Source: Escherichia phage A5-4
Direction: 5' to 3' (one strand)
Sequence record: OP744025
Length of the DNA stretch: 64,000 bases
Translations under genes and position numbers: made by a program
The notes under the pieces: model-generated
What the model was told of the DNA's origin: nothing
Databases searched by the model: none
What the model saw: only the letters and a program-made list of their open reading frames with translations
Part shown: positions 1,801 through 24,279 of the stretch, piece after piece
Position numbering within the stretch: position 1 is the stretch's first letter
Layout of the letters: each line of letters starts with the position of its first letter

Positions 1801-1828
1801 ATAGGCAAACGAAATAGGATTTATAGAA

Positions 1829-2035
1829 ATGAAAAAGAAAATTGTATATAATATTATTAGCTTTATCGCAACTATCCTCCTGGCTATTGCTGGTCTATCT
1901 TTGATTGTTGCAGTAGGATCTCTGTTTCCTGGGGCAATAAGTATTAGCATAGCTTTCGCCGCATTGTCTGTTTTTACAGGGTATGCAGGGATTAAAGTTA
2001 CTTATTGGTCAGAAGATTACAAATATTCAAACTGA
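1829..2035 (+). CDS. small membrane protein (two predicted TM helices)
   Basis: ORF track; protein almost entirely hydrophobic. Confidence 0.55.
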   Translation: MKKKIVYNIISFIATILLAIAGLSLIVAVGSLFPGAISISIAFAALSVFTGYAGIKVTYWSEDYKYSN

Positions 2036-2048
2036 ATTGAGGTGTAAG

Positions 2049-2198
2049 ATGTACAAGCTATTAACCTGGGAAACAGAATCATCGTCACCGATCAGCCGGA
2101 CCTTTTTTGATTTGTGCACGGCTTACAGGCTGGCAAAGGGAGGGTATCATAAGGCCCAAATCATTGATGAATTTAATGTTATCCTTTATGAATTTTAA
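2049..2198 (+). CDS. hypothetical small protein
   Basis: Internal Met of track ORF 1983..2198, chosen to avoid overlap; gaggtgtaag RBS-like run before ATG. Confidence 0.4.
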   Translation: MYKLLTWETESSSPISRTFFDLCTAYRLAKGGYHKAQIIDEFNVILYEF

Positions 2199-2327
2199 TC
2201 AATTCATATACTTAAAAGAAAGTTAGAAAAAGTTTTAAAAAGTGGTTGCAACAGGTATTGGATAGTAGTATAGTACTTTCAACGGGGCGAGATGGCCCAA
2301 AACGAAAAAACTTGAAAGGTGATTATC

Positions 2328-2420
2328 ATGATGGCAATTTTCTTAATTTCTCTTCTGGTCGCTGTATGTTCTGCCACTGCTGCCGCTGTACTTTATGACA
2401 CCCGCTACAATGAGGAATAA
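2328..2420 (+). CDS. hypothetical 30-aa hydrophobic peptide
   Basis: Hand-translated MMAIFLISLLVAVCSATAAAVLYDTRYNEE; aaggtga RBS; coordinates approximate. Confidence 0.3.
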   Translation: MMAIFLISLLVAVCSATAAAVLYDTRYNEE

Positions 2421-2425
2421 TAAAA

Positions 2426-2644
2426 ATGAATATTGTCAACATTACAGGTAAGACCGAGATCCTTAAGAATCTTGCGCCAGGTGAGTCCACCGTATGGATC
2501 TGCAAAGATGGCGAAGTAGAAAAACAAATGAGATTGTTTACCGCTATTTGTTGTCGGTTAAATATGAAAGTTACACAAATCCGATCGATGATTGTTAGTG
2601 TGGGAAACATTCCGACTGAATGCATAATTCTTACAAAGATTTAA
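2426..2644 (+). CDS. hypothetical early protein
   Basis: ORF track; co-oriented, tight spacing. Confidence 0.5.
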   Translation: MNIVNITGKTEILKNLAPGESTVWICKDGEVEKQMRLFTAICCRLNMKVTQIRSMIVSVGNIPTECIILTKI

Positions 2645-2720
2645 AAATAGCTTTACAACAACGATAAAATCAGTACAATACAAATCAGGCAATAAAGCCA
2701 ACTAAAGAAAGGTAAAGACC

Positions 2721-2960
2721 ATGCAAACTATTATCACTAAATTTCTTCCTCCTACGAATACCCGTGGCGCTCGCATCAAAGCAAAATGTTGGTTGACAGA
2801 TATCACTATCGCCTATCCGGTAGCCGAGATCAACGAAGCCCATAAACTGGCGGCAGAAGTGTTAATTACAAAATTGAAGATGACAACAGATATTGATTGG
2901 AAAATTGTTGCAAGTGGTGAAACACCGGACGGATCAGGTTATGCATTTATCATCAAATAA
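2721..2960 (+). CDS. hypothetical early protein
   Basis: ORF track; aaggtaaag RBS-like run. Confidence 0.55.
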   Translation: MQTIITKFLPPTNTRGARIKAKCWLTDITIAYPVAEINEAHKLAAEVLITKLKMTTDIDWKIVASGETPDGSGYAFIIK

Positions 2961-4823: not shown

Positions 4824-4997
4824 ATGGCAATTCTGGCGAAAGATGTAAAAGTAGGTATGACCTTTAATGATTGTGAAGTTGTCTATGTTGCCGCGCACGG
4901 CGACGGTATCATTACCATTGAAACAGAACACTTTGATCGAGATTGTGGCGAGATGGAATATTTTTCTTGCGAGTATCATGAAAACGATGAGTTTTAA
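4824..4997 (+). CDS. hypothetical small protein
   Basis: Internal Met of track ORF 4701..4997, chosen because the promoter cassette lies inside the longer ORF. Confidence 0.4.
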   Translation: MAILAKDVKVGMTFNDCEVVYVAAHGDGIITIETEHFDRDCGEMEYFSCEYHENDEF

Positions 4998-5001
4998 ACT
5001 A

Positions 5002-5056
5002 TTGACACTGTAAGTAATTGTGTTAATATTTTTGTGTAGGGCGGCAATGTTGCCGC
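5002..5056 (+). promoter_or_regulatory. TTGACA box plus stem-loop (gcggcaatgttgccgc) cassette
   Basis: TTGACA 5002-5007; hairpin 5041-5056. Confidence 0.5.
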
Positions 5057-5077
5057 TCACTGACTGGAGCTATCACC

Positions 5078-5479
5078 ATGACCTTTACAATCACCTCTTA
5101 CACTGACGTTGCCAGCATTGCTAAAACTTTCGGCCCTGAAGCCCTTAAATATGCGGTATCCAATGGTAATCTGACAAAAGAGGAATGTTATCTGATTGGA
5201 AGCTGTAAACGTTGGGCGGTATCTCGTAACATCGAGATTGAAAACGTAAATGATGGCAACATCGAATATAGCGTTGATGCAGTATTCCAAGTTGTTGATT
5301 TAGGTGGTATCTATAATACCAATCTTAATGATGTGCGTATCGTTCGCACTGGCTTTGGGGCTTATGATGTTCCAGTTCGTGAAGCTATGGAAAAAGGTTA
5401 TATTAATCCAGCCATTTTAAGCATGATCATGACTGAGGCCAAACAACGTAACGAGATACGGGCTATCCTGGGCCTGTAA
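5078..5479 (+). CDS. hypothetical early protein
   Basis: ORF track. Confidence 0.6.
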   Translation: MTFTITSYTDVASIAKTFGPEALKYAVSNGNLTKEECYLIGSCKRWAVSRNIEIENVNDGNIEYSVDAVFQVVDLGGIYNTNLNDVRIVRTGFGAYDVPVREAMEKGYINPAILSMIMTEAKQRNEIRAILGL

Positions 5480-5500
5480 TGAAATATTAATGGAAAACTA

Positions 5501-6079: not shown

Positions 6080-6219
6080 GCTATTCTTATCAAACGGGCG
6101 GCACCTGGGAACAGGGGGGAGGTAATCACTGGACGACTCCGCTATATAGTGATAGTAAATAGCTATCAATAATCTCCAAAAATAAAATAAAACCTATCGA
6201 GTCTTTACAATTCTTTCTA

Positions 6220-6265
6220 TTGACACAACAACCGCATTACAGTATTATTTATCTCGTAGGGCAGC
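6220..6265 (+). promoter_or_regulatory. TTGACA promoter-like box with conserved upstream ttacaattct motif
   Basis: ctattgacac at about 6218-6227; same upstream motif recurs at about 7246. Confidence 0.4.
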
Positions 6266-6521
6266 GAAGCAGTGATGTAAAGTAGTTACTCTATGATGTA
6301 AGTTCTGAGAAGTCGAATCCGATAAAGTATCAGAAAGTTTCTAAGTTTTCGAATCGTCCAGATGAAAAAGGCTGGCAAGTGTTGAGAAAGGGCACGTTGA
6401 GTAAGTCCTGAACAGGGGCGCTCCTAGACACCTTCTACTGAGATTGCGATCGAAGTGTTAAACTGTGAGAAACGATAAAGAGTACCAGGAAAGAAAGAAG
6501 TAAAAGAAGTGAAAAAGATTG

Positions 6522-6570
6522 TTGACACGAAGGTAAGTTTTGTACTATTATCTATCTTGTAGGGCAAACT
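6522..6570 (+). promoter_or_regulatory. TTGACA promoter-like box
   Basis: gttgacacg 6521-6529; tactattat -10-like; ORF at 6596. Confidence 0.45.
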
Positions 6571-6595
6571 TCAAGAACATTAAAAAGGGTACAAA

Positions 6596-6871
6596 ATGTT
6601 ACAGCTTAACGCCAAATTAGACAAAGAAATCACTGAGTTTTGGGATATGGTAGTGGCTACAGATGTTGACGGTGTAGCAAGTCCTTACCTCAATAACATT
6701 GAGTATCATAATGTTGCAGCTATGAATGCAGAATACGCAGAAGAAGGCGGCGCGGATAAGTTTGCTAAAAGCAACGGTTTCACTGATGCTAACGACATGA
6801 TGCAATCAGTTTTGTGGCAAGCCCAGGAAGATTTTGAAGAAAAAACTCTTGAATTCGCCAGACGTTCATAA
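6596..6871 (+). CDS. hypothetical protein
   Basis: ORF track; aaaaagggtacaaaATG. Confidence 0.55.
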   Translation: MLQLNAKLDKEITEFWDMVVATDVDGVASPYLNNIEYHNVAAMNAEYAEEGGADKFAKSNGFTDANDMMQSVLWQAQEDFEEKTLEFARRS

Positions 6872-17849: not shown

Positions 17850-18030
17850 AAGTCATAAATGCTTGATCAACCATATCTTTCCACTCAGGGTAGAGAGCAC
17901 AAATCATGATGTAGACCTCTTCATCAATGTCTTCACACTCCTCCATTTCCAAATACTCTACCACAGGTATGGGCAGAAGGCAATTTATTTCTTTACCCCT
18001 GAATTTCAGACCCTTAACTAATTTTAGCAT
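17815..18030 (-). CDS. hypothetical protein with ALYPE motif
   Basis: Contains EDIDEEVYIMICALYPEW, the motif shared by several neighbouring ORFs. Confidence 0.5.
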   Translation of the reverse strand: MLKLVKGLKFRGKEINCLLPIPVVEYLEMEECEDIDEEVYIMICALYPEWKDMVDQAFMTFGGWYNESSDR

Positions 18031-18031
18031 A

Positions 18032-18271
18032 TCAATCCTTAATCACGTAGAATCCTGATTCGTTCATCAGGACAAAGGACTTGCCGAAGAAATCCTTACG
18101 ATTATCCAAAACAAGGTAGAATCTTCGCTCAGACGAGAGGTGATGTGGGTCAGCCATATAGCTTACCCTCGCCGTCATGCCCTTATTCTTGCCCCTCGTG
18201 ATCCTTACCCTTGTACCATTCTCATATTTAATAGACACCGAACCTCCCTTGCAACTCTTTATGAACCGCAT
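18032..18271 (-). CDS. hypothetical protein
   Basis: ORF track. Confidence 0.5.
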   Translation of the reverse strand: MRFIKSCKGGSVSIKYENGTRVRITRGKNKGMTARVSYMADPHHLSSERRFYLVLDNRKDFFGKSFVLMNESGFYVIKD

Positions 18272-18731
18272 CTAATCCTGGCTTCAGTTTTGGAAGATCT
18301 CTTATAAACTCAGGGTATAGGATATTAACGAACTCAATCTCATCATCAGTAGGCTTTTGGGTATCTTCAAAATACTCGTCAAGATTGAATATCTGCCAAT
18401 CCTTATGCCTTGCCTTTCGTATAGCTATGAAGATTTCATTGTTGCAGGTAGCCATCCAGGAAATCCTAGAACCTTCACCTTTACCACTTGGTAGTGTGGA
18501 AACACAGAAGCGTGGTACTTCCCGAACCTTAAAACCCTCGTCATAGTATCCACGACCACGTTGAAATTTAAACTTGGTCTTCCCCACTCTCTGACTAATC
18601 TTCATGTCACGACGAAAGCTGTGGTCAGAAGTATAAATAAGTGGCCTAATGTATCCCGTATGACGGATCTTTTTCCAATTCCAATCTCGAATCAGTATCT
18701 CATAAACTTCCTTAAATGCTTCATACGCCAT
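18228..18731 (-). CDS. hypothetical protein with ALYPE-type motif
   Basis: Contains KPTDDEIEFVNILYPEF. Confidence 0.55.
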   Translation of the reverse strand: MAYEAFKEVYEILIRDWNWKKIRHTGYIRPLIYTSDHSFRRDMKISQRVGKTKFKFQRGRGYYDEGFKVREVPRFCVSTLPSGKGEGSRISWMATCNNEIFIAIRKARHKDWQIFNLDEYFEDTQKPTDDEIEFVNILYPEFIRDLPKLKPGLDAVHKELQGRFGVY

Positions 18732-18960
18732 CGAACGATTCCTTATCTAGAGCACCAACAATCTCGAACTTTGCTACGCCTAAAACAACCACATGACCCA
18801 AGGATTGTACACCTGTCCACGGAGTACCATTCCTCTTAGGTCGCTTACCAGTTACATCGCAGAAATCATTCCGCATTTCTGTTGCATCAAACAACTCGCC
18901 TTTCGGAAAAACATCTTTGAAGTCAGCGATCACGTTAAGACATTTCAGTTTCATATTCAA
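18721..18960 (-). CDS. hypothetical protein
   Basis: ORF track. Confidence 0.5.
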   Translation of the reverse strand: MNMKLKCLNVIADFKDVFPKGELFDATEMRNDFCDVTGKRPKRNGTPWTGVQSLGHVVVLGVAKFEIVGALDKESFDGV

Positions 18961-19297
18961 ACACTCCTCTCTCTAATCTTTGTTTGGCAAGTAACTCCCT
19001 TTGTGCTCTAAGTGGCATCCTGAAAAATATCACAACATTCTCCAAATCTGCCGCCCGTTTTTTAAGCTCTTTGGTGAATTTACCTTCCCGCTTAATTGCA
19101 TCGTATATCTCTCTATACTCATATTCGATAGAGTTGTCTTCAAATATCCGGTTGGCGACCATATTATCAATCTCCATACCGATAGCTTCAAAGCTATACC
19201 AGTCTACATGTTCTTCTGTAACAGGACCTCTTTCTTTGTACACTTGTCCAGTTATTTCATTAACTACGATCGTTGTCATTGGAGTATCTCCTTGCAT
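18935..19297 (-). CDS. hypothetical protein, FFRMP-motif paralog A
   Basis: Shares GMEI...FED.S and FFRMP motifs with the 19260 gene. Confidence 0.5.
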   Translation of the reverse strand: MQGDTPMTTIVVNEITGQVYKERGPVTEEHVDWYSFEAIGMEIDNMVANRIFEDNSIEYEYREIYDAIKREGKFTKELKKRAADLENVVIFFRMPLRAQRELLAKQRLERGVFEYETEMS

Positions 19298-19604
19298 TAT
19301 ACGGCATCCTGAAAAAGTTTAAAAGGTTGTAGATAGCAGCAACCCTCTCTCTTACCTTTTCGTCAGAGAAACAATCAGGACCTTCGCTGCAAAGTTTAAA
19401 ATCTATATCTTCCCACTCAGCGACCACAGATTCGTCTTCGAAAACTCCCTTTTCAAACATCATTCGAATCTCCATCTCCATACCCTTGAAGATTGTAAAA
19501 GTAACATCTTCAGGATCAAGGTATGATACATTGTCTATAAAGAGGCCCCTTTCGGGATAAATGACCATATGCAAAATAATCCTCCTGTGTCCAATATAAT
19601 CCAC
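19260..19604 (-). CDS. hypothetical protein, FFRMP-motif paralog B
   Basis: See paralog A; the DNA repeat ggcatcctgaaaaa occurs in both genes. Confidence 0.5.
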   Translation of the reverse strand: MDYIGHRRIILHMVIYPERGLFIDNVSYLDPEDVTFTIFKGMEMEIRMMFEKGVFEDESVVAEWEDIDFKLCSEGPDCFSDEKVRERVAAIYNLLNFFRMPYNARRYSNDNDRS

Positions 19605-19692
19605 CCAGAAGCGATTTTGACGAGGTTTTCTTAAGATAATGATAAATCACCTTACCTCGTCGTAGACCTCGTTAGAATCGTTCTGAGAGCGT

Positions 19693-19947
19693 TTAAGCCA
19701 TACCGAGCAAATTCATCTCTTTTAACAGGCCTTCCAAGGTAGCATTAAACAACACTGGCTTGCCTTCCTCCAGCTTATTGAAGAAGATTTCATGAGTTTC
19801 ATTATCTATCTTCTCCATCTCTTTTACCACTTCCTCTGACAAAAAGATATCACTACCTTTTAAACCAGGAAACATCAAGAGAATTGCAGTTTTTGCATTT
19901 GTTGCCCAACCCTGACCACCATTCAGACTGAATATCTTAATCATCAT
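19693..19947 (-). CDS. hypothetical protein
   Basis: Internal Met of track ORF 19693..20025 with RBS tggagg. Confidence 0.5.
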   Translation of the reverse strand: MMIKIFSLNGGQGWATNAKTAILLMFPGLKGSDIFLSEEVVKEMEKIDNETHEIFFNKLEEGKPVLFNATLEGLLKEMNLLGMA

Positions 19948-20245
19948 TTTCCTCCAAATTAACCAGTGCAGTTCGGACTTCAAGAAGAGTTGCTGCCCTT
20001 GCCTCGTTTCTCTCTGAGAAATCACGAATCATCATCTTGTACTTCATTTCTTCTTCAGTACGAAGAATTTTCTGTTCGATCAGTTTGTAAACTTGGCCTG
20101 CTCTTTCTGGAAACAACGCTGCAAAGAGATTCCAATCTTCCAATCTACCTTCGTAAGACTCTCCAGAAGTAAAGTACCGATCTCTTTCGATACTGTCAAC
20201 AAAATAGTAGCCGAATTCACCATAACGCCAAGTTTCATTTTTCAT
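19937..20245 (-). CDS. hypothetical protein, paralog of 20407..20646
   Basis: Shared YFTS...EGR.EDW...PE motif. Confidence 0.55.
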   Translation of the reverse strand: MKNETWRYGEFGYYFVDSIERDRYFTSGESYEGRLEDWNLFAALFPERAGQVYKLIEQKILRTEEEMKYKMMIRDFSERNEARAATLLEVRTALVNLEENDD

Positions 20246-20403
20246 TTGATGTACCGAGCAGCAGCCGTACCGATAAGGAAGCCAGCAGGAACTGCGACAA
20301 TGATAGCTTCAATCATTTTAAGATCTGCTGCAACACATGCTGCACCAACAACAACAGAACCAGCCCAGATAGCAATTACACGTTTCAAAAATTTAGTATT
20401 CAT
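20242..20403 (-). CDS. small membrane protein (53 aa)
   Basis: Hand-translated MNTKFLKRVIAIWAGSVVVGAACVAAD...; RBS aggaga; ATGA overlap with downstream start. Confidence 0.5.
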   Translation of the reverse strand: MNTKFLKRVIAIWAGSVVVGAACVAADLKMIEAIIVAVPAGFLIGTAAARYIK

Positions 20404-20406
20404 TCG

Positions 20407-20646
20407 TTAGTCTCCTGATTTTGTTAAGTTTTCTTTTATTTTTACGTACTCGATTAAAGATTTTGCGAGATCACCATCGATTTTCTCACAAACCATGAGT
20501 ATCTCTCTTACCTTTTCGGGATGAACAGATTCATAAAATTTCCAATCCTCTGTTCTCCCCTCTGTGGTTTGGGAAGTGAAGTATTCTTCTCTGTCTCGCT
20601 CCGGTAAGAGATAATATACAAGACTTAGCTTCCTCTCGTCAAGCAT
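20407..20646 (-). CDS. hypothetical protein, paralog of 19937..20245
   Basis: Shared motif. Confidence 0.55.
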   Translation of the reverse strand: MLDERKLSLVYYLLPERDREEYFTSQTTEGRTEDWKFYESVHPEKVREILMVCEKIDGDLAKSLIEYVKIKENLTKSGD

Positions 20647-20655
20647 TTTATCACC

Positions 20656-21027
20656 TTATTCGTAAAAAACCTTATCCGCTTGTTCTTTTAACCAACCCCG
20701 TCGGAAAGCACTCTTAAGTATTTCTGCCCACTTCGGATTTGCTGCCTCTAAGAGAAGTACCTCTTCTTTCTCTATGTTCATAGGATCAGCAAAGAAATCC
20801 AAAATCTCCTCATTGAAGACACCCTCTATCAAGATCCCTTTATATTTCAACGTCAAAAGTTTTGCCATAAAACCTTGAGATATTGCTCCCTCTCTATCAA
20901 TTGTCGTAGTTGGGGGATTTGGAAAAGGGAAACCCTGCATCGGTGTTGGTGATGCACCTGTCTTCACAAAAGTGTTCCCGCCAGTGTTATTGAAGAAACC
21001 TTTCATATTTTTATCGTACAATGACAT
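20656..21027 (-). CDS. hypothetical protein with ALYPE-type motif
   Basis: Contains FADPMNIEKEEVLLLEAANPKW. Confidence 0.5.
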   Translation of the reverse strand: MSLYDKNMKGFFNNTGGNTFVKTGASPTPMQGFPFPNPPTTTIDREGAISQGFMAKLLTLKYKGILIEGVFNEEILDFFADPMNIEKEEVLLLEAANPKWAEILKSAFRRGWLKEQADKVFYE

Positions 21028-21466
21028 TTTCTACCCTCTCTTGAATTTTTATCTCTGCCTCATCTAAAGCTTCCCCCATTGCAAGGATATACCTTGAAAT
21101 TTCAGGGAACAACGCTTCAAACATCTCTATCTCCTCTTCAAGTATATCTGTTGGATCGAAGAAATACTCTTCAAGGACTATTCGCTTTGTCACGATCTTG
21201 TTGCCGTAAGTAACAAAAACGAAACGATCAGGTTTCCCAATAGAATCTTTGGAGGTTCTCCATTGGAAAAGATGCCTGTTTGAACTTATGTTTATCCTTT
21301 TGTCAGCCTTGTCCAGCGGGATTCTAAAACTTACGGATGCTGACATTCCTTCGGATTGAGTCCATTTTTCACTCTTCTTAAAAATATTGTTCCGGTATCT
21401 GTTTTTACCTAAGGCATTAAAAGTCCACTGCCTGCTCAATCTCTCGATTATCTCTTTAGTTTTCAA
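21011..21466 (-). CDS. hypothetical protein with ALYPE-type motif
   Basis: Contains FFDPTDILEEEIEMFEALFPEI. Confidence 0.55.
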   Translation of the reverse strand: MKTKEIIERLSRQWTFNALGKNRYRNNIFKKSEKWTQSEGMSASVSFRIPLDKADKRINISSNRHLFQWRTSKDSIGKPDRFVFVTYGNKIVTKRIVLEEYFFDPTDILEEEIEMFEALFPEISRYILAMGEALDEAEIKIQERVENVIVR

Positions 21467-22014
21467 AACGGTATGTCCTCGTCAACAATAAATTTTATAG
21501 CATTCTTTACAGCCGCTTTATTCAGATGTTGAACACGCTGGAAGAACATTAGGTTCAAGTCAAGAAGAATATCATCATCTCCGTACAACGCCGTGAAAAG
21601 ATCAAGCTCTTCATCTGTCGGATGCGTGGGATTCTCAAATAAGCCCTCAAACACCACCTGGGCCTCATTTCTTTTAGCCAGCGTGGTTGAGTCTCGATAG
21701 ATATTTAATACCGTGTGTACATCATCTACGCTTAGGATTTTGACACATTCCAGATCTCCTGTGTCACCATCGAGATAAAGAGTGATCGCAGGAGTTGACC
21801 AATTTGATTCACTTATTGCATAAACGTAGATGCTTTTGCGATTACCAACTGCAATAGACTCTTCAATTTTCTTTTCTGCCGCCTTAAAGAAAGGTTGGTG
21901 TTTGATCCAATGCTCCCAACCAATCCAACGAGCACCCTTACCATACGCATTCAGCACATGATTCTCAATGTTACGTTTACTCTTTAAAACCTCCATAAAA
22001 GAAAAGCCAGCCAC
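21463..22014 (-). CDS. hypothetical protein with ALYPE-type motif
   Basis: Contains NPTHPTDEELDLFTALYGDD. Confidence 0.55.
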   Translation of the reverse strand: MAGFSFMEVLKSKRNIENHVLNAYGKGARWIGWEHWIKHQPFFKAAEKKIEESIAVGNRKSIYVYAISESNWSTPAITLYLDGDTGDLECVKILSVDDVHTVLNIYRDSTTLAKRNEAQVVFEGLFENPTHPTDEELDLFTALYGDDDILLDLNLMFFQRVQHLNKAAVKNAIKFIVDEDIPF

Positions 22015-22035
22015 CTTTCGGTGACTGGCCTAGAG

Positions 22036-22503
22036 TTAGCTACTAATCACCACGAATGCAGTAACTATAGCATACAGAAATCCAATTGCAACAAAAATTA
22101 TCATAATGGGGTCAGAGGTTACTCGCTTAAGTTTTCCTAAGAAAGTTGATCGGTATTTGTGTTCCTTCTCCATTTTGTTTATCAAAATGATGAAAGAGTT
22201 GATATGAATATCTTCAGCACTCTCTGCAAAAGGTGTGTACTTGAACGTACCTTCTGTATTTGCAACAAAGCTGCGATGATACTTTTTACCGTCATAACTT
22301 TCTATAAGAAGACCATCCTTTGTCACCCGATAACTAACTGAACGGAACTTGTCATAAAAAACGTATGCCCTGAATCCATCTTGATCGGGAACAGCCTTTC
22401 TGACGTAGCCGTCAAAAAACTCCAATCTCTTTCCAGAATTCAGTTCCAAGTTGTCAGCTAACATAGGGAGTTGACTTACGTATGTAAAGTACATAATGAT
22501 CAT
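22036..22503 (-). CDS. hypothetical protein with C-terminal TM helix
   Basis: ORF track; hydrophobic C-terminus. Confidence 0.5.
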   Translation of the reverse strand: MIIMYFTYVSQLPMLADNLELNSGKRLEFFDGYVRKAVPDQDGFRAYVFYDKFRSVSYRVTKDGLLIESYDGKKYHRSFVANTEGTFKYTPFAESAEDIHINSFIILINKMEKEHKYRSTFLGKLKRVTSDPIMIIFVAIGFLYAIVTAFVVISS

Positions 22504-22695
22504 CCTTCCACTAAGCTGAAATCATTTTATCATATTATGAAAAAATACAACAGCGAAGATCGGTCATGAACACTATGTTGTTAATTTTTACAACAGGACT
22601 CCAAAAAAGTATTTAAATCACTTAAATCGATTTTAATACATAGAAAATACCTATGGACCAGATCTGACCCATAGGCTATACCTTAATGTGAAATT

Positions 22696-23274
22696 TTATT
22701 CATTTCCCCGATATTTTTGAATTGCGATCGAAGTCCTTGGTTCAGCCAGTCCAGTTCCATATGCATACCATTTGCCAGTGAGTGTTTTTCGAGCACCGTA
22801 GGACCCAATCTCCATGTCGTCACAATAAACATCGTAACCGATCGGGGTCTTAACTAAAAAGAGTACATTACGAGGAATCCCTAAGAGGGTAAACATCGAT
22901 ATGGCATCTTTTGCGATCTCGTGAGAAATCTTCTCTGCATTCTTTTTACTGGTTGCACTTCTAAACAGTTCCATCTTTAAGAAGATATTGAAATGAATAT
23001 CATCAAGAACCATCTCATCACGGAAGCATGGGGTCACAGCCATCCAACTGCCATCTTCCAACTTCCCTTCTTTGTCGAGTTGGAGGAATGATTGCTCTGC
23101 GGAAGCCACTGCATATTTCCCGTTCTGGACAATTCGAAGATCAGTAACATCTTCGGGGCATGTATGATCCATAGCATCATCATCCACATAGCTTGGGACA
23201 ACCTTATCATTGAAACCTTTACATTTCCACCAACTGTGGGCATCAATAAACAATGTGAAGTCGATGTTTGACAT
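22696..23274 (-). CDS. hypothetical protein
   Basis: Internal Met (MSNIDF) of track ORF 22696..23304, removing overlap with the upstream gene. Confidence 0.5.
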   Translation of the reverse strand: MSNIDFTLFIDAHSWWKCKGFNDKVVPSYVDDDAMDHTCPEDVTDLRIVQNGKYAVASAEQSFLQLDKEGKLEDGSWMAVTPCFRDEMVLDDIHFNIFLKMELFRSATSKKNAEKISHEIAKDAISMFTLLGIPRNVLFLVKTPIGYDVYCDDMEIGSYGARKTLTGKWYAYGTGLAEPRTSIAIQKYRGNE

Positions 23275-23275
23275 T

Positions 23276-23779
23276 TTAGCCTCGCTTACCATTCTGGAAT
23301 GCACGTTTAGTAATTTTTGACATAACCATCAGGTCTTCTATTGAAGTGCTTGGATGATACTTATTCAGGTAGGCTTCCATAGCGCCGACCAGATCAGAAA
23401 GCTCTACCAACTCCATGATCTTACATTTTTGTTTAGCTGCATCCTTGAGTTCATCAAGTTCTTCTTGAATCTTAGTGATCTCTCCAAGCTCTCCGCGAGG
23501 GAAAGTATCCAGATGATAACCAGGTTTTTGTTCTTCAATGCCCTCATGTCCGACAACACGAAATTTTCCGGCAGCGAAACGCCAAACACCTTCAAAATAC
23601 ACAATGTAATGTTCCGACTCTGCAATGAAGATAGTGTCGAAATTTTTAAATTTAAAAAATCCTTCGATAAGATTATCTTCTGTACTGAAACTTCCTAAGA
23701 AGTTGAGTTCTTGCTCCGTATGAAATTCCATAACCATATTTTCGTTCTGGAGTTTCGTCAGCAATTTTAAAATTTTCAT
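23276..23779 (-). CDS. hypothetical protein, possibly MazG-like all-alpha pyrophosphohydrolase
   Basis: Internal Met with RBS aggagag; C-terminal ELGEITKIQEELDELKDAA...LVELSDLVGAMEAYL loosely resembles the MazG EExxE motif. Confidence 0.35.
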   Translation of the reverse strand: MKILKLLTKLQNENMVMEFHTEQELNFLGSFSTEDNLIEGFFKFKNFDTIFIAESEHYIVYFEGVWRFAAGKFRVVGHEGIEEQKPGYHLDTFPRGELGEITKIQEELDELKDAAKQKCKIMELVELSDLVGAMEAYLNKYHPSTSIEDLMVMSKITKRAFQNGKRG

Positions 23780-23790
23780 TTTCTCTCCTC

Positions 23791-24279
23791 TTATGGGCAA
23801 CACCGTGGAGATCTTCCACAGAAGAATTGCCAATTGGTTTCTGAGTCTTTGTAATTTACAAACCCTATCCTTCCGCACCCTTTCCCACTACAAACCGCTT
23901 CACGAGGATGATAGTCTATACTGCAAGAGTGGGGATGATCAAACGCTTCTCGTATTTCAACACAGAGTCTACTTAACCAAGCGAACATTTTTGGCATAGA
24001 AGCTTCAAGGAGTTTAAGTTCATCGACCGTAGGTTTGTCTTTCTCCATGAAGAAGTCATTTATCTCGGAAAACAAAATCACGTTTTGAACTATACCGCTG
24101 CTTACCTTGTAAGAGAACTCCTCAGTAAGTCTCACAGTAACTTCCTCTATCAATTCTTTTTCATTATCTTGATCTTTTGCTAATCTTTCTTCAATCCATC
24201 GGATAACGAAGAATCTTTCTCTCTGAACATCCATGTTCAAAGTATTGATTATTTTTTCATAGATTAGGTTTCCTTCCAT
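23791..24279 (-). CDS. hypothetical Cys-rich protein with ALYPE-type motif
   Basis: Contains KPTVDELKLLEASMPKMF; N-terminal cysteine cluster. Confidence 0.5.
   Translation of the reverse strand: MEGNLIYEKIINTLNMDVQRERFFVIRWIEERLAKDQDNEKELIEEVTVRLTEEFSYKVSSGIVQNVILFSEINDFFMEKDKPTVDELKLLEASMPKMFAWLSRLCVEIREAFDHPHSCSIDYHPREAVCSGKGCGRIGFVNYKDSETNWQFFCGRSPRCCP

What the first reader, a model, noticed from the sequence alone, without database searches (positions are those of the whole stretch)
19937..20646. Paralog pair split by a start/stop-coupled 53-aa membrane peptide
Genes 19937..20245 and 20407..20646 share YFTS..(E/T)..EGR.EDW......PE. Between them sits an unannotated 53-codon hydrophobic ORF (20242..20403) with a strong AGGAGA RBS, whose TGA overlaps the ATG of the downstream gene. 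Small membrane peptides of this kind fall below the track cutoff and are easily missed.
Basis: seen in the sequence. Interest (0 to 1): 0.4.

Follow-up and report, generated by a model that had tools for sequence, protein, structure and literature searches.

The report
Small phage membrane hairpin gene
The 53-codon ORF is a real, conserved gene for a tiny two-helix membrane protein of an E. coli phage, read in tandem with the gene after it; databases already list it as a hypothetical protein and its function is unknown.

Summary
The window is a Septuagintavirus-like (Vequintavirinae) E. coli phage. On the minus strand lie g79 (20407..20646), a 53-codon ORF p53 (20242..20403) and g102 (19937..20245). 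p53 has an AGGAGA Shine-Dalgarno 7 nt upstream, and its TGA overlaps the g102 ATG (ATGA). g79 and g102 are true paralogs (BLASTP 3e-10; hhalign 95%).

p53 is a real gene. Across six genomes, 15 of 16 variable sites are third-codon positions and dN/dS is 0-0.17. A metagenomic lineage has a 51-aa homolog (40% identity, E 2e-11) in the same position with the same ATGA overlap. Certrevirus phages carry a 57-aa two-segment hydrophobic peptide in the same slot. AlphaFold2 predicts a helical hairpin (pLDDT 88) with basic ends.

The conserved unit is the peptide plus the g102-like gene. g79 is an extra copy found only in Septuagintavirus. The downstream gene has a weak Shine-Dalgarno in all three lineages, which suggests translational coupling.

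p53 is not unannotated: all five related GenBank genomes list it as "hypothetical protein". The lipoprotein label in UniRef is not supported by conservation. No family, fold or defence library matches it, so the function is unknown; an accessory inner-membrane module is my inference. This is an ordinary, solid small gene of modest interest.

The parts
20407..20646 (-). g79: a 79-aa acidic (pI 4.9) soluble protein. It is the upstream paralog and is found only in the Septuagintavirus lineage.
   Evidence: ORF. It is annotated in 5 relatives. dN/dS is 0-0.26. It is absent from the Certrevirus and metagenomic-lineage loci. pI.
20482..20616 (-). Shared N-terminal domain of g79 (residues 11-55): VYYLLPERDREEYFTS..EGRTEDW..YESVHPEK.
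   Evidence: BLASTP E 3e-10 against g102 residues 13-58. hhalign 95%.
20411..20416 (-). Shine-Dalgarno AGGAGA of p53. It lies inside the last codons of g79, 7 nt upstream of the ATG.
   Evidence: Sequence. It is invariant in 6 genomes. Anti-SD duplex energy is -7.4 kcal/mol.
20242..20403 (-). p53: gene for a 53-aa basic (pI 9.9), Ala/Gly/Val-rich protein predicted to be a two-helix membrane hairpin.
   Evidence: The 16 variable sites split 1/0/15 by codon position, and dN/dS is 0-0.17. A homolog, p51, matches at E 2e-11. AF2 gives pLDDT 87.9 with helices 3-25 and 30-51.
20329..20379 (-). Hydrophobic segment 1 of p53 (residues 9-25, VIAIWAGSVVVGAACVA). It is preceded by the basic N-tail K4, K7, R8. 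It contains Cys23 (20335..20337).
   Evidence: Hydropathy and window sums. AF2 helix 3-25.
20317..20328 (-). Predicted turn of the hairpin (residues 26-29, A-D-L-K), presumed to face the periplasm.
   Evidence: AF2 secondary structure. The charge distribution follows the positive-inside rule, which is established knowledge.
20257..20307 (-). Hydrophobic segment 2 of p53 (residues 33-49, AIIVAVPAGFLIGTAAA), followed by the basic C-tail RYIK.
   Evidence: AG.L.G..A.RYI[KR] is conserved in p51.
20242..20245 (-). ATGA overlap of the p53 stop (TGA) and the g102 start (ATG).
   Evidence: It is invariant in 6 genomes. The same ATGA occurs in the metagenomic lineage, and Certrevirus has a 1-nt TGATG overlap.
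19937..20245 (-). g102: a 102-aa acidic (pI 4.7), all-helical protein. It is the conserved downstream partner of the peptide and has a weak SD of its own.
   Evidence: ORF. SD energy is -3.0 kcal/mol. AF2 gives pLDDT 78.7 with helices 4-15, 18-24, 31-44 and 46-99. Homologs are g98 in L014 (E 1e-11) and Certrevirus g96, which is phrog_15823.
20072..20209 (-). Shared N-terminal domain of g102 (residues 13-58).
20656..21027 (-). g123: the gene upstream of the module. In the other two lineages its ortholog directly precedes the peptide gene.
   Evidence: BLASTP to the L014 116-aa protein (E 7e-17) and to the Certrevirus ~150-aa proteins. hhalign 97%.
19693..19947 (-). g85: the gene downstream of g102, which it overlaps. 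It is the syntenic anchor (phrog_14890) in all three lineages.

Best explanation
p53 (20242..20403, minus strand) is a genuine protein-coding gene of a Septuagintavirus-like phage.

It encodes a 53-residue basic protein predicted to insert into the host inner membrane as a helical hairpin. Both short basic tails (MNTKFLKR... and ...RYIK) would sit in the cytoplasm, and a 4-6 residue turn (A-D-L-K) would face the periplasm.

p53 is translated from its own strong Shine-Dalgarno sequence, which is embedded in the end of g79. Its stop codon overlaps the ATG of g102 (ATGA). g102 has only a weak Shine-Dalgarno sequence of its own. I infer that g102 is made largely by ribosomes that have just finished p53 (termination-reinitiation). 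That would tie the amount of the acidic, all-helical g102 protein, and the place where it is made, to the membrane peptide.

The evolutionarily conserved unit is the peptide plus the g102-like gene. It is found in three lineages and is lost as a block in phage phiTE. g79 is a Septuagintavirus-specific extra copy of the g102 family inserted just upstream.

The module lies in a string of small, tightly packed genes next to nucleotide-metabolism genes, not in a lysis cassette, and it is dispensable.

My functional guess is inference only. I think it is an accessory host-envelope module. The membrane hairpin would act on or at the inner membrane, for example in superinfection exclusion or in interference with a membrane-associated host function. 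Its cytoplasm-proximal conserved ends may dock the g102-like partner, while its periplasm-proximal half varies between lineages.

- Shown: the coding status, the conservation, the architecture and the synteny.
- Inferred: the membrane insertion and topology, the translational coupling, any p53-g102 contact, and the biological role.
For: Coding status:
- The 16 variable sites among 6 genomes split 1/0/15 by codon position.
- 14 codons carry synonymous changes only, against 2 conservative changes (I31V, F42L).
- NG86 dN/dS is 0-0.17, the lowest of the three genes.
- The antisense ORF that shares third positions has a higher dN/dS, and its start codon is not kept.

Homologs and synteny:
- The 51-aa p51 lies on metagenomic contigs L014-L016. 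BLASTP gives 2e-11, 40% identity, 50 ungapped residues. The gene order is the same, g155-g183-g151-g123like-peptide-g102like-g85like, and the ATGA overlap is the same.
- Twenty-one Certrevirus records carry a 57-aa peptide with two hydrophobic segments (phrog_17188) immediately upstream of the g102-like gene (phrog_15823), overlapping it by 1 nt.
- Both genes are missing together in phiTE.

Topology:
- There are two ~17-residue hydrophobic segments flanked by +3 and +2 tails.
- AF2 predicts a hairpin with pLDDT 87.9.

Coupling:
- The peptide SD energy is -6.3 to -9.3 kcal/mol, against -3.0 to -4.5 for the downstream gene, in all three lineages.

Conservation pattern:
- The ends are conserved and the middle is variable. 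p53/p51 identity is 9/15, 3/22 and 8/14 along the sequence.
- Entropy in the 57-aa family is 0.72, 1.51 and 0.74 for the same three parts.

g79 as a lineage-specific duplicate:
- It is absent from the other two lineages, and its best match is g102.

Context:
- The window carries nrdA/B/D, ligase, exonuclease and tRNA nucleotidyltransferase genes.
- No lysis gene appears among the ten cluster proteins scanned, 18.9-22.5 kb.
Against: - There is no direct evidence of translation, membrane insertion or function. No Ribo-seq, proteomics or transcriptome was found for this phage group.
- The two hydrophobic segments are short and only marginally hydrophobic. Simple sums on the Hessa scale, taken from memory, give +0.3 and +1.6 kcal/mol.
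- Homology of p53 to the Certrevirus 57-aa peptides is not demonstrated. BLASTP finds nothing. hhalign gives 43% probability. The HMM score of 9.2 bits is reached by 0.4% of shuffles for p53 but by 17% for p51. The Certrevirus peptide may therefore be an analog rather than an ortholog.
- Stop/start overlaps are common along this whole gene string, so the overlap itself does not prove special coupling.
- P7_Pc combines a g96 that is 98% identical to PcCB7V's with the other peptide subtype. This argues against tight co-evolution of the variable middle of the peptide with the partner.
- The AF2 model of p53 used an alignment dominated by the Certrevirus peptides, whose homology is uncertain.
Confidence: 0.75

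Rival explanations
1. p53 is a lipoprotein precursor. Residues 1-22 would be a signal peptide cleaved by signal peptidase II at the lipobox-like V-G-A-A|C23. The product would be a 31-residue N-acylated peptide with one transmembrane helix.
For: UniRef names the identical protein 'Lipoprotein'. The sequence has a basic n-region (K4, K7, R8), a 14-residue hydrophobic core and small residues at -1 and -2 before Cys23. That fits the permissive PROSITE-type lipobox rule as I recall it. A Cys at the equivalent position occurs in p51 and in about half of the Certrevirus peptides.
Against: Position -3 is Gly, which lies outside the usual [LVI] of the strict lipobox (from my own knowledge). In the true homolog p51 the residue before the Cys is Val (IIATV|C), which is not a permitted -1 residue. 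About half of the positional equivalents in Certrevirus have no Cys at all (LIGGLGAY, LIGGFGAY). The N-terminal 'signal' part is among the best-conserved parts of the protein (9/15 identities with p51), which is unusual for a cleaved signal peptide.
Confidence: 0.08
2. p53 is a class II holin, pinholin or antiholin that controls the timing of lysis.
For: It has two hydrophobic helices, an N-in/C-in topology, a basic C-terminal tail and a size near that of small holins. Single Certrevirus peptides give sub-threshold Pfam hits to holin families (E 0.017 and 0.16). The Septuagintavirus paper names an endolysin-type peptidase and an amidase but no holin.
Against: No holin family reaches threshold for p53, p51 or the 57-aa peptides. 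The gene sits in a string of small genes beside nucleotide-metabolism genes. No endolysin or spanin was found among the neighbouring cluster proteins scanned. The module is deleted in the viable phage phiTE. It has no dual-start motif, and the tail carries only 2 basic residues.
Confidence: 0.06
3. The ORF is only a translational device, an upstream ORF whose translation delivers ribosomes to g102. Its peptide product would have no function of its own.
For: The peptide gene has a strong SD and the downstream gene a weak one, with overlapping stop and start codons, in all three lineages.
Against: The amino-acid sequence is under strong purifying selection (dN/dS 0-0.17). The length, the two-segment hydrophobic architecture and the basic tails are kept at 40% identity in p51 and in the Certrevirus peptides. 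A pure coupling ORF would not need any of this.
Confidence: 0.03
4. The real gene is the antisense ORF 20093..20410 on the plus strand (105 aa), and the p53 frame is its shadow.
For: That ORF is open in all six genomes and shares third-codon positions with p53. It therefore inherits part of the third-position variation pattern.
Against: Its dN/dS over the p53 portion is higher than that of p53 in every pair (0.05-0.52 against 0-0.17). Its TTG start is replaced by a non-start codon (Phe) in three of the five relatives. Half of it lies antisense to g102 in a different phase. All genes from about 11 kb to 58 kb are on the minus strand. The p53 frame alone has a homolog in L014.
Confidence: 0.01
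5. p53 is a small membrane-damaging or depolarising peptide that contributes to host shut-off, similar in kind to type I toxins. The g102-like protein, and g79, would be its cytoplasmic moderator or antidote.
For: It has the size, hydrophobicity and small-xxx-small motifs (GFLIGTAAA) typical of oligomerising membrane peptides. It is strictly paired with an acidic partner made in fixed ratio. In Septuagintavirus a second copy of the partner family sits right next to it.
Against: It has no sequence or profile similarity to any known toxin or defence-related family. There are no toxicity data. The idea rests on architecture only.
Confidence: 0.1

Closest known systems
Phage T4 Imm, the immunity (superinfection exclusion) protein, and similar small inner-membrane exclusion proteins such as HK97 gp15 (from my own knowledge, not tested here)
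   Same: It is a small phage-encoded inner-membrane protein with two predicted hydrophobic helices. It is encoded among accessory genes outside the structural and lysis modules, and it is dispensable for growth.
   Different: There is no detectable sequence, profile or fold similarity. p53 is shorter, at 53 aa against about 83. It is strictly paired with a soluble partner gene, which is not a feature of Imm. The exclusion function is untested.
Pinholins and class II holins, e.g. phage 21 S21-68 (from my own knowledge)
   Same: Two transmembrane helices, an N-in/C-in topology and a basic C-terminal tail.
   Different: p53 is not next to an endolysin, and no holin family reaches threshold. The module is deleted in a viable relative.
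phrog_17188 plus phrog_15823, the Certrevirus 57-aa peptide and its 96-99-aa downstream partner, both of 'unknown function'
   Same: They occupy the same position in a syntenic gene string. The peptide has two hydrophobic segments and basic tails, and its stop overlaps the start of a g102-like gene. g102 and g79 are detectably related to phrog_15823.
   Different: The p53/p51 peptides do not match phrog_17188. Homology of the peptides is only hinted at, with hhalign at 43%. Certrevirus has no g79.
Bacterial small inner-membrane proteins that modulate larger membrane complexes, such as AcrZ, KdpF and MgtS (from my own knowledge)
   Same: Size class, location in the membrane, and the fact that they are easily missed by annotation.
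   Different: Those proteins have a single transmembrane helix and are host-encoded. There is no sequence relation, and the complete E. coli genomes contain no similar DNA.
Translationally coupled gene pairs with ATGA or TGATG stop/start overlap, a classic feature of bacterial and phage operons (established knowledge)
   Same: There is a four-base ATGA overlap, and the downstream gene has a poor SD.
   Different: Nothing differs in kind. The only notable point is that the arrangement is kept in three diverged lineages.

Membership tests
Bacterial lipoprotein (signal peptidase II substrate) | A lipobox [LVI][ASTVI][GAS]C at the end of a signal peptide | tested here: not met
   p53 has V-G-A-A-C, with Gly at -3. 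This passes only a permissive pattern. Its homolog p51 has A-T-V-C, with Val at -1.
Bacterial lipoprotein (signal peptidase II substrate) | The lipidated Cys is invariant across family members | tested here: not met
   Cys is present in p53 and p51 and in about half of the positional equivalents in Certrevirus. The others have LIGG[LF]G with no Cys.
Bacterial lipoprotein (signal peptidase II substrate) | Lgt/LspA-dependent lipidation and cleavage | not testable with these tools
   This needs globomycin or palmitate-labelling experiments.
Holin (class II / pinholin) | Two transmembrane helices with N-in/C-in topology and a charged C-terminal tail | tested here: met
   There are two hydrophobic segments, basic N- and C-tails and an AF2 hairpin. 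The tail is short, with 2 basic residues.
Holin (class II / pinholin) | Location in a lysis cassette next to an endolysin or spanin | tested here: not met
   The neighbouring cluster proteins scanned are small proteins of unknown function, and the larger window genes scanned are nucleotide-metabolism genes. No lysis gene was found among them.
Holin (class II / pinholin) | A match to a curated holin family | tested here: not met
   There is no Pfam, NCBIfam or PHROG holin hit for p53 or p51. Certrevirus peptides give only sub-threshold hits (E 0.017 and 0.16).
Holin (class II / pinholin) | Essential for timed lysis | tested here: inconclusive
   The module is deleted in the isolated phage phiTE, which argues against an essential role. 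No lysis phenotype was tested.
Glycine-zipper 2TM families (Pfam Rick_17kDa_Anti / Gly-zipper) | A match to the Pfam models | tested here: not met
   None of the 9 peptides scanned at E<=10 hits these families.
phrog_17188 (Certrevirus 57-aa peptide) | Sequence match to the family profile | tested here: not met
   p53 and p51 match no PHROG. My own HMM of 29 clusters scores p53 at 9.2 bits, a score reached by 0.4% of shuffles. p51 scores 3.4 bits, reached by 17% of shuffles. hhalign gives 43%.
phrog_17188 (Certrevirus 57-aa peptide) | Same genomic slot and same architecture | tested here: met
   The peptide lies between the g123-like and g102-like genes, and its stop overlaps the downstream start. 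It has two hydrophobic segments and basic tails.
phrog_15823 (g102-like partner family) | Sequence match of g102 and g79 | tested here: met
   g102 matches at E 0.0039 and g98M at E 7e-4. hhalign gives g79~g96 85% and g102~g96 82%. P0033 bridges the families at E 1e-7. The matches are weak but consistent.
Superinfection-exclusion membrane proteins (T4 Imm type) | Blocks DNA entry of a superinfecting phage | not testable with these tools
   This needs expression and superinfection assays. There is no sequence similarity on which to lean.

The most novel reading that the evidence does not exclude
The 2-TM micro-protein plus the acidic helical partner form a previously undescribed two-component accessory module of Vequintavirinae. 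The membrane hairpin's conserved cytoplasm-proximal ends would hold the partner at the inner membrane. Its fast-evolving, recombining periplasm-proximal half would engage a variable host or rival-phage target, making this a new kind of superinfection-exclusion or counter-defence device. The Septuagintavirus-specific duplication of the partner (g79) would be an adaptation of that system.
Probability: 0.2. Interest if true: 0.55.

Novelty: new member of a known kind. Interest (0 to 1): 0.3.

Why it matters
Small membrane proteins are a blind spot of phage annotation, and the few that have been studied often control host takeover, exclusion of rival phages or lysis timing.

This work shows that the 53-codon ORF is a selected gene. 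It defines the gene's real evolutionary unit, the peptide plus the g102-like partner, which is conserved in three lineages and lost as a block in one phage. It corrects the 'Lipoprotein' label. It also gives testable predictions about topology, coupling and a possible complex.

In practice, Septuagintavirus and Certrevirus phages are being considered for therapy and biocontrol, so knowing their accessory envelope-acting genes is useful. In itself, however, this is one more uncharacterised small phage gene, not a surprise.

Tried and rejected
Searches and analyses that found nothing or were inconclusive:
- Pfam, PHROGs, NCBIfam and PADLOC gave nothing at or near threshold for p53, g79, g102 or p51.
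- The word-indexed search of 5.8 billion proteins found only the protein's own 90% cluster, both for p53 and for g102.
- The exhaustive HMMER search with the g102/g79 profile found only 3 representatives. One of them (P0033) led to the useful third lineage.
- Foldseek of the g102 model against the PDB found nothing. Against BFVD it found only a 79-residue viral protein, plausibly its own paralog, which I did not verify.
- Foldseek of the p53 hairpin against the PDB gave only insignificant hits. The afdb50 library was unavailable.
- Scans of IMG/VR and JGI metagenomes with the g102 family or the neighbouring g155 membrane protein gave nothing new.
- Complete E. coli genomes have no similar DNA.
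- The promoter and terminator scan found no more sites than in shuffled sequence.
- Literature: the Septuagintavirus description does not discuss this gene, holins or membrane proteins. I found no transcriptome or proteome for this region.

Readings I rejected:
- The lipoprotein reading, because the lipobox is not conserved.
- The antisense ORF, because its dN/dS is higher and its start codon is lost in relatives.
- The pure-uORF reading, because the peptide is under amino-acid-level selection.

Left undecided: my first visual impression was that g123 shares the g79/g102 domain. Direct hhalign did not support this (no link above 30%). It emerged only after iterating an HMM, so I report it as a lead, not a result.
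Full report
WHAT THE WINDOW IS. Bases 18000-23000 match five Escherichia phages of the subfamily Vequintavirinae at 92-96% identity: A7_1, A73, W70, UPEC06 and LTH01. The p53 protein is identical to 'hypothetical protein A54_134 [Septuagintavirus sv54]', so the window comes from a Septuagintavirus-like virulent myovirus. Almost all ORFs from about 11 kb to 58 kb are on the minus strand. The larger ones encode ribonucleotide reductases (nrdA, nrdB, nrdD), DNA ligase, an exonuclease, nucleotidyltransferases and three RCC1-like repeat proteins. A tRNA cluster lies at 61-63 kb. The finding sits inside a string of small, tightly packed genes of unknown function.

THE OBSERVATION. On the minus strand the order is g79 (20407..20646), a 53-codon ORF here called p53 (20242..20403), and g102 (19937..20245).
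- The AGGAGA sits at 20416..20411, and 7 nt separate it from the ATG. It overlaps the last codons of g79, and its anti-SD duplex energy is -7.4 kcal/mol.
- The p53 TGA and the g102 ATG overlap as ATGA (20245..20242).
- g79 and g102 share an N-terminal domain of about 46 residues. BLASTP gives E 3e-10, phmmer gives 4e-8 against all 423 window ORFs with no other hit, and hhalign gives 95%.
- The ORF is not unannotated in public data. All five related records carry it as a hypothetical protein.

IS p53 A GENE? I aligned the trio from the window and the five relatives.
- Within p53, 16 sites vary: 1 at codon position 1, none at position 2 and 15 at position 3.
- Fourteen codons carry only synonymous changes. 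Two carry conservative changes, I31V and F42L.
- Nei-Gojobori dN/dS is 0-0.17. That is lower than for g79 (0-0.26) and at least as low as for g102 (0.07-0.31).
- A 105-codon ORF on the opposite strand (20093..20410) shares third positions with p53 and could mimic this pattern. However, its dN/dS over the same stretch is higher in every pair, and its TTG start is a non-start Phe codon in three of the five relatives. Half of it also lies antisense to g102 in another phase.
- The SD, the start and the ATGA junction are invariant in all six genomes.

RELATIVES AND SYNTENY. Searches with p53 or g102 in the 5.8-billion-protein index found only their own clusters. An exhaustive HMMER search with a g102/g79 profile against 1.84 billion representatives returned three proteins: the two query clusters and P0033, a 98-residue protein at E 1e-7.

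P0033 is encoded on three metagenomic contigs, L014-L016.
- Their gene order parallels the window: g155-like membrane protein (74% identity), g183-like (43%), g151-like (33%), g123-like (35%), a 51-codon ORF, the g102-like gene (28%) and a g85-like gene (39%).
- The 51-residue product, MKTVKRVAFINAGSVIIATVCGLSGLTVMDSLFVSCIAGALLGISAVRYIR, aligns with p53 over 50 residues without a gap. Identity is 40% and E is 2e-11.
- Its stop overlaps the downstream ATG as ATGA, and its own ATG overlaps the stop of the upstream gene.
- There is no g79 in this lineage.

In Certrevirus phages (CR3, CR8, CR9, PBES02, PcCB7V, POP15, F1M1E, KaOmega, P7_Pc and others) the same syntenic string exists.
- A 57-codon ORF (phrog_17188) lies directly upstream of a 96-99-residue g102-like gene (phrog_15823). 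Its stop overlaps that gene's ATG by one base, and it has its own GGAG.
- The 57-residue peptides again have two hydrophobic segments and basic tails.
- Their homology to p53/p51 is not established. BLASTP finds nothing. An HMM of 29 clusters scores p53 at 9.2 bits in a collinear alignment, a score that 0.4% of composition-matched shuffles reach. p51 scores only 3.4 bits, reached by 17% of shuffles, and hhalign gives 43% probability. I therefore call them positional equivalents and possibly orthologs.
- Phage phiTE keeps the g183 and g151 homologs. A deletion has removed the g123-like gene, the peptide, the g102-like gene, the next gene and part of the g85-like gene. The module is therefore dispensable and was lost as a block.

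The conserved unit is thus the peptide plus the g102-like gene. g79, whose best match is g102 of its own genome, is a Septuagintavirus-specific extra copy placed upstream of the peptide.

WHAT THE PEPTIDE LOOKS LIKE.
- p53 is basic (pI 9.9) and has two hydrophobic stretches of about 17 residues, at 9-25 and 33-49.
- It has a +3 N-tail (K4, K7, R8), a +2 C-tail (R50, K53) and a short D-L-K-M-I-E connector.
- By the positive-inside rule (established knowledge), both ends would be cytoplasmic.
- AlphaFold2, with an alignment of p53 and 23 Certrevirus-type peptides, gives a helical hairpin: helices 3-25 and 30-51 with a turn at 26-29, mean pLDDT 87.9. The caveat is that the alignment partners are of uncertain homology.
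- The segments are only marginally hydrophobic by a simple sum on the Hessa scale, which I took from memory.
- In both peptide families the membrane-inner ends are conserved and the middle is variable. The middle comprises the outer halves of both helices plus the turn. p53/p51 identities are 9/15, 3/22 and 8/14, and column entropy in the 57-residue family is 0.72, 1.51 and 0.74.
- In Certrevirus the middle exists in two subtypes. P7_Pc combines a partner gene 98% identical to PcCB7V's with the other peptide subtype, so recombination occurs within the module.

THE LIPOPROTEIN LABEL. UniRef calls the protein 'Lipoprotein', presumably because V-G-A-A-C23 after a basic, hydrophobic N-terminus fits a permissive lipobox rule (my inference). 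Three points count against it. The -3 residue is Gly. The true homolog p51 has Val at -1. About half of the Certrevirus peptides have no Cys. The putative 'signal' region is also among the best-conserved parts. I give this reading about 8%.

THE PARTNER. g102 is acidic (pI 4.7). AlphaFold2, with a shallow 3-sequence alignment and pLDDT 78.7, predicts three short helices followed by a 54-residue helix. Nothing in the PDB resembles it. The only BFVD match is a 79-residue viral protein, plausibly the g79 ortholog but not verified.

The SD of the g102-like gene is weak in all three lineages (-3.0 to -4.5 kcal/mol), whereas that of the peptide is strong (-6.3 to -9.3). Together with the overlapping stop and start, this suggests termination-reinitiation coupling, which is an inference. 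Overlaps are common along the whole string, so the overlap alone is not distinctive.

FUNCTION. No family, defence, fold or literature evidence bears on function. Complete E. coli genomes have no related DNA. From its position (an accessory gene string, not a lysis cassette), its dispensability, its architecture and its fixed pairing with a soluble acidic protein, I infer an accessory inner-membrane module. It possibly acts in superinfection exclusion or in interference with a host membrane function. This is the weakest part of the account, and I put about 0.2 on any specific version.

The holin reading (about 6%) is disfavoured by location, by the lack of family matches and by the phiTE deletion. 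A toxin-like membrane peptide moderated by its partner (about 10%) cannot be excluded.

WIDER FAMILY (LEAD).
- An HMM of the g79/g102/g96/g98 N-domain also hits g151 (E 6e-4) and g167 (E 4e-3) in the window.
- On iteration in a 649-ORF local database it gathers g123, g162, g183 and their orthologs. It picks up no off-frame ORF.
- Cross-hits in BLASTP agree with this.
- Direct hhalign links were seen only for g151~g183.
- The 'paralog pair' may therefore be the closest pair in a diverged tandem multigene family spanning 18.2-24.3 kb.

VERDICT. This is a solid, already-annotated small gene for a predicted two-helix membrane protein. It forms a conserved pair with the downstream gene, and its function is unknown. 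It is a new member of a known kind, and I score interest at 0.3.

Noticed in passing
window 18228..24279 (-): g167 18228..18731, g102, g79, g123 20656..21027, g151 21011..21466, g183 21463..22014, g162 23791..24279: A short motif of about 30 residues (roughly EEYF..x..[DE]E[WLI]..F..L[YF]PE) recurs in at least seven genes of this string and in their orthologs in Certrevirus and the metagenomic lineage. An iterated HMM gathers only real same-strand genes and no off-frame ORFs. This looks like a diverged tandem multigene family of unknown function.
   Followed up: partly
window 18935..19297 (-) and 19260..19604 (-): A second pair of adjacent paralogs, g120 and g114, scores 96.5% in hhalign and about 34% identity over 92 residues. 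They share an 'FFRMP' motif, and their ends overlap.
   Followed up: partly
window 12846..16377 (-): Three consecutive genes of 380-414 residues all match the RCC1-like 'regulator of chromosome condensation' repeat PHROG (phrog_4219). They form a tandem triplet of beta-propeller-type proteins.
   Followed up: no
window 16965..17072 (-) and 58519..58662 (-): Two further very small hydrophobic ORFs have ATG starts and good Shine-Dalgarno sequences. The first is 35 aa (MSIWKNNVPATNKVTFTKTEITVMVIATFIVLVLL) and appears to correspond to a 108-nt CDS annotated in UPEC06. The second is 47 aa with one hydrophobic segment. Conservation was not analysed.
   Followed up: no
window 61271..61349 (+): Rfam's tRNA model finds a sixth tRNA-like sequence (35.8 bits; gathering score 29) just upstream of the five tRNAs. 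ARAGORN did not call it.
   Followed up: no
window 22004..22031 (-): A terminator-like hairpin with a 12-bp stem and a T-rich tail overlaps the GTG start of the long reading of ORF 21463..22014. The true start of that gene is therefore probably further downstream, and this may be a transcription-unit boundary just upstream of the gene string that contains the finding.
   Followed up: partly
L013 (Pectobacterium phage phiTE) 4452..4772: This is a fusion ORF whose C-terminus matches the g85-like protein. It marks a deletion that removed the g123-like gene, the small peptide, the g102-like gene and the following 87-aa gene.
   Followed up: yes
L009 (phage P7_Pc) 1328..1791 compared with L003 (PcCB7V) 2313..2776: The g102-like genes are 98% identical, but the upstream 57-aa peptides belong to different subtypes (58% identity, differing in the middle). 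This indicates a recombination breakpoint inside the peptide gene.
   Followed up: partly
L003 (PcCB7V) 1805..2101 and 2109..2258: The g123-like gene is a single ORF of about 150 codons in other Certrevirus phages. Here it is split into two annotated ORFs, probably by a frameshift or a sequencing error.
   Followed up: no
L001 (A7_1) 4967..5488; L002 (UPEC06) 6197..6775: Public annotations call the g183 homolog 'ATP synthase gamma chain' and a neighbouring gene 'putative seryl-tRNA synthetase'. These names are not supported by Pfam or PHROG for the window's g183 ORF. The neighbouring gene was not scanned. The names look like over-annotation.
   Followed up: partly
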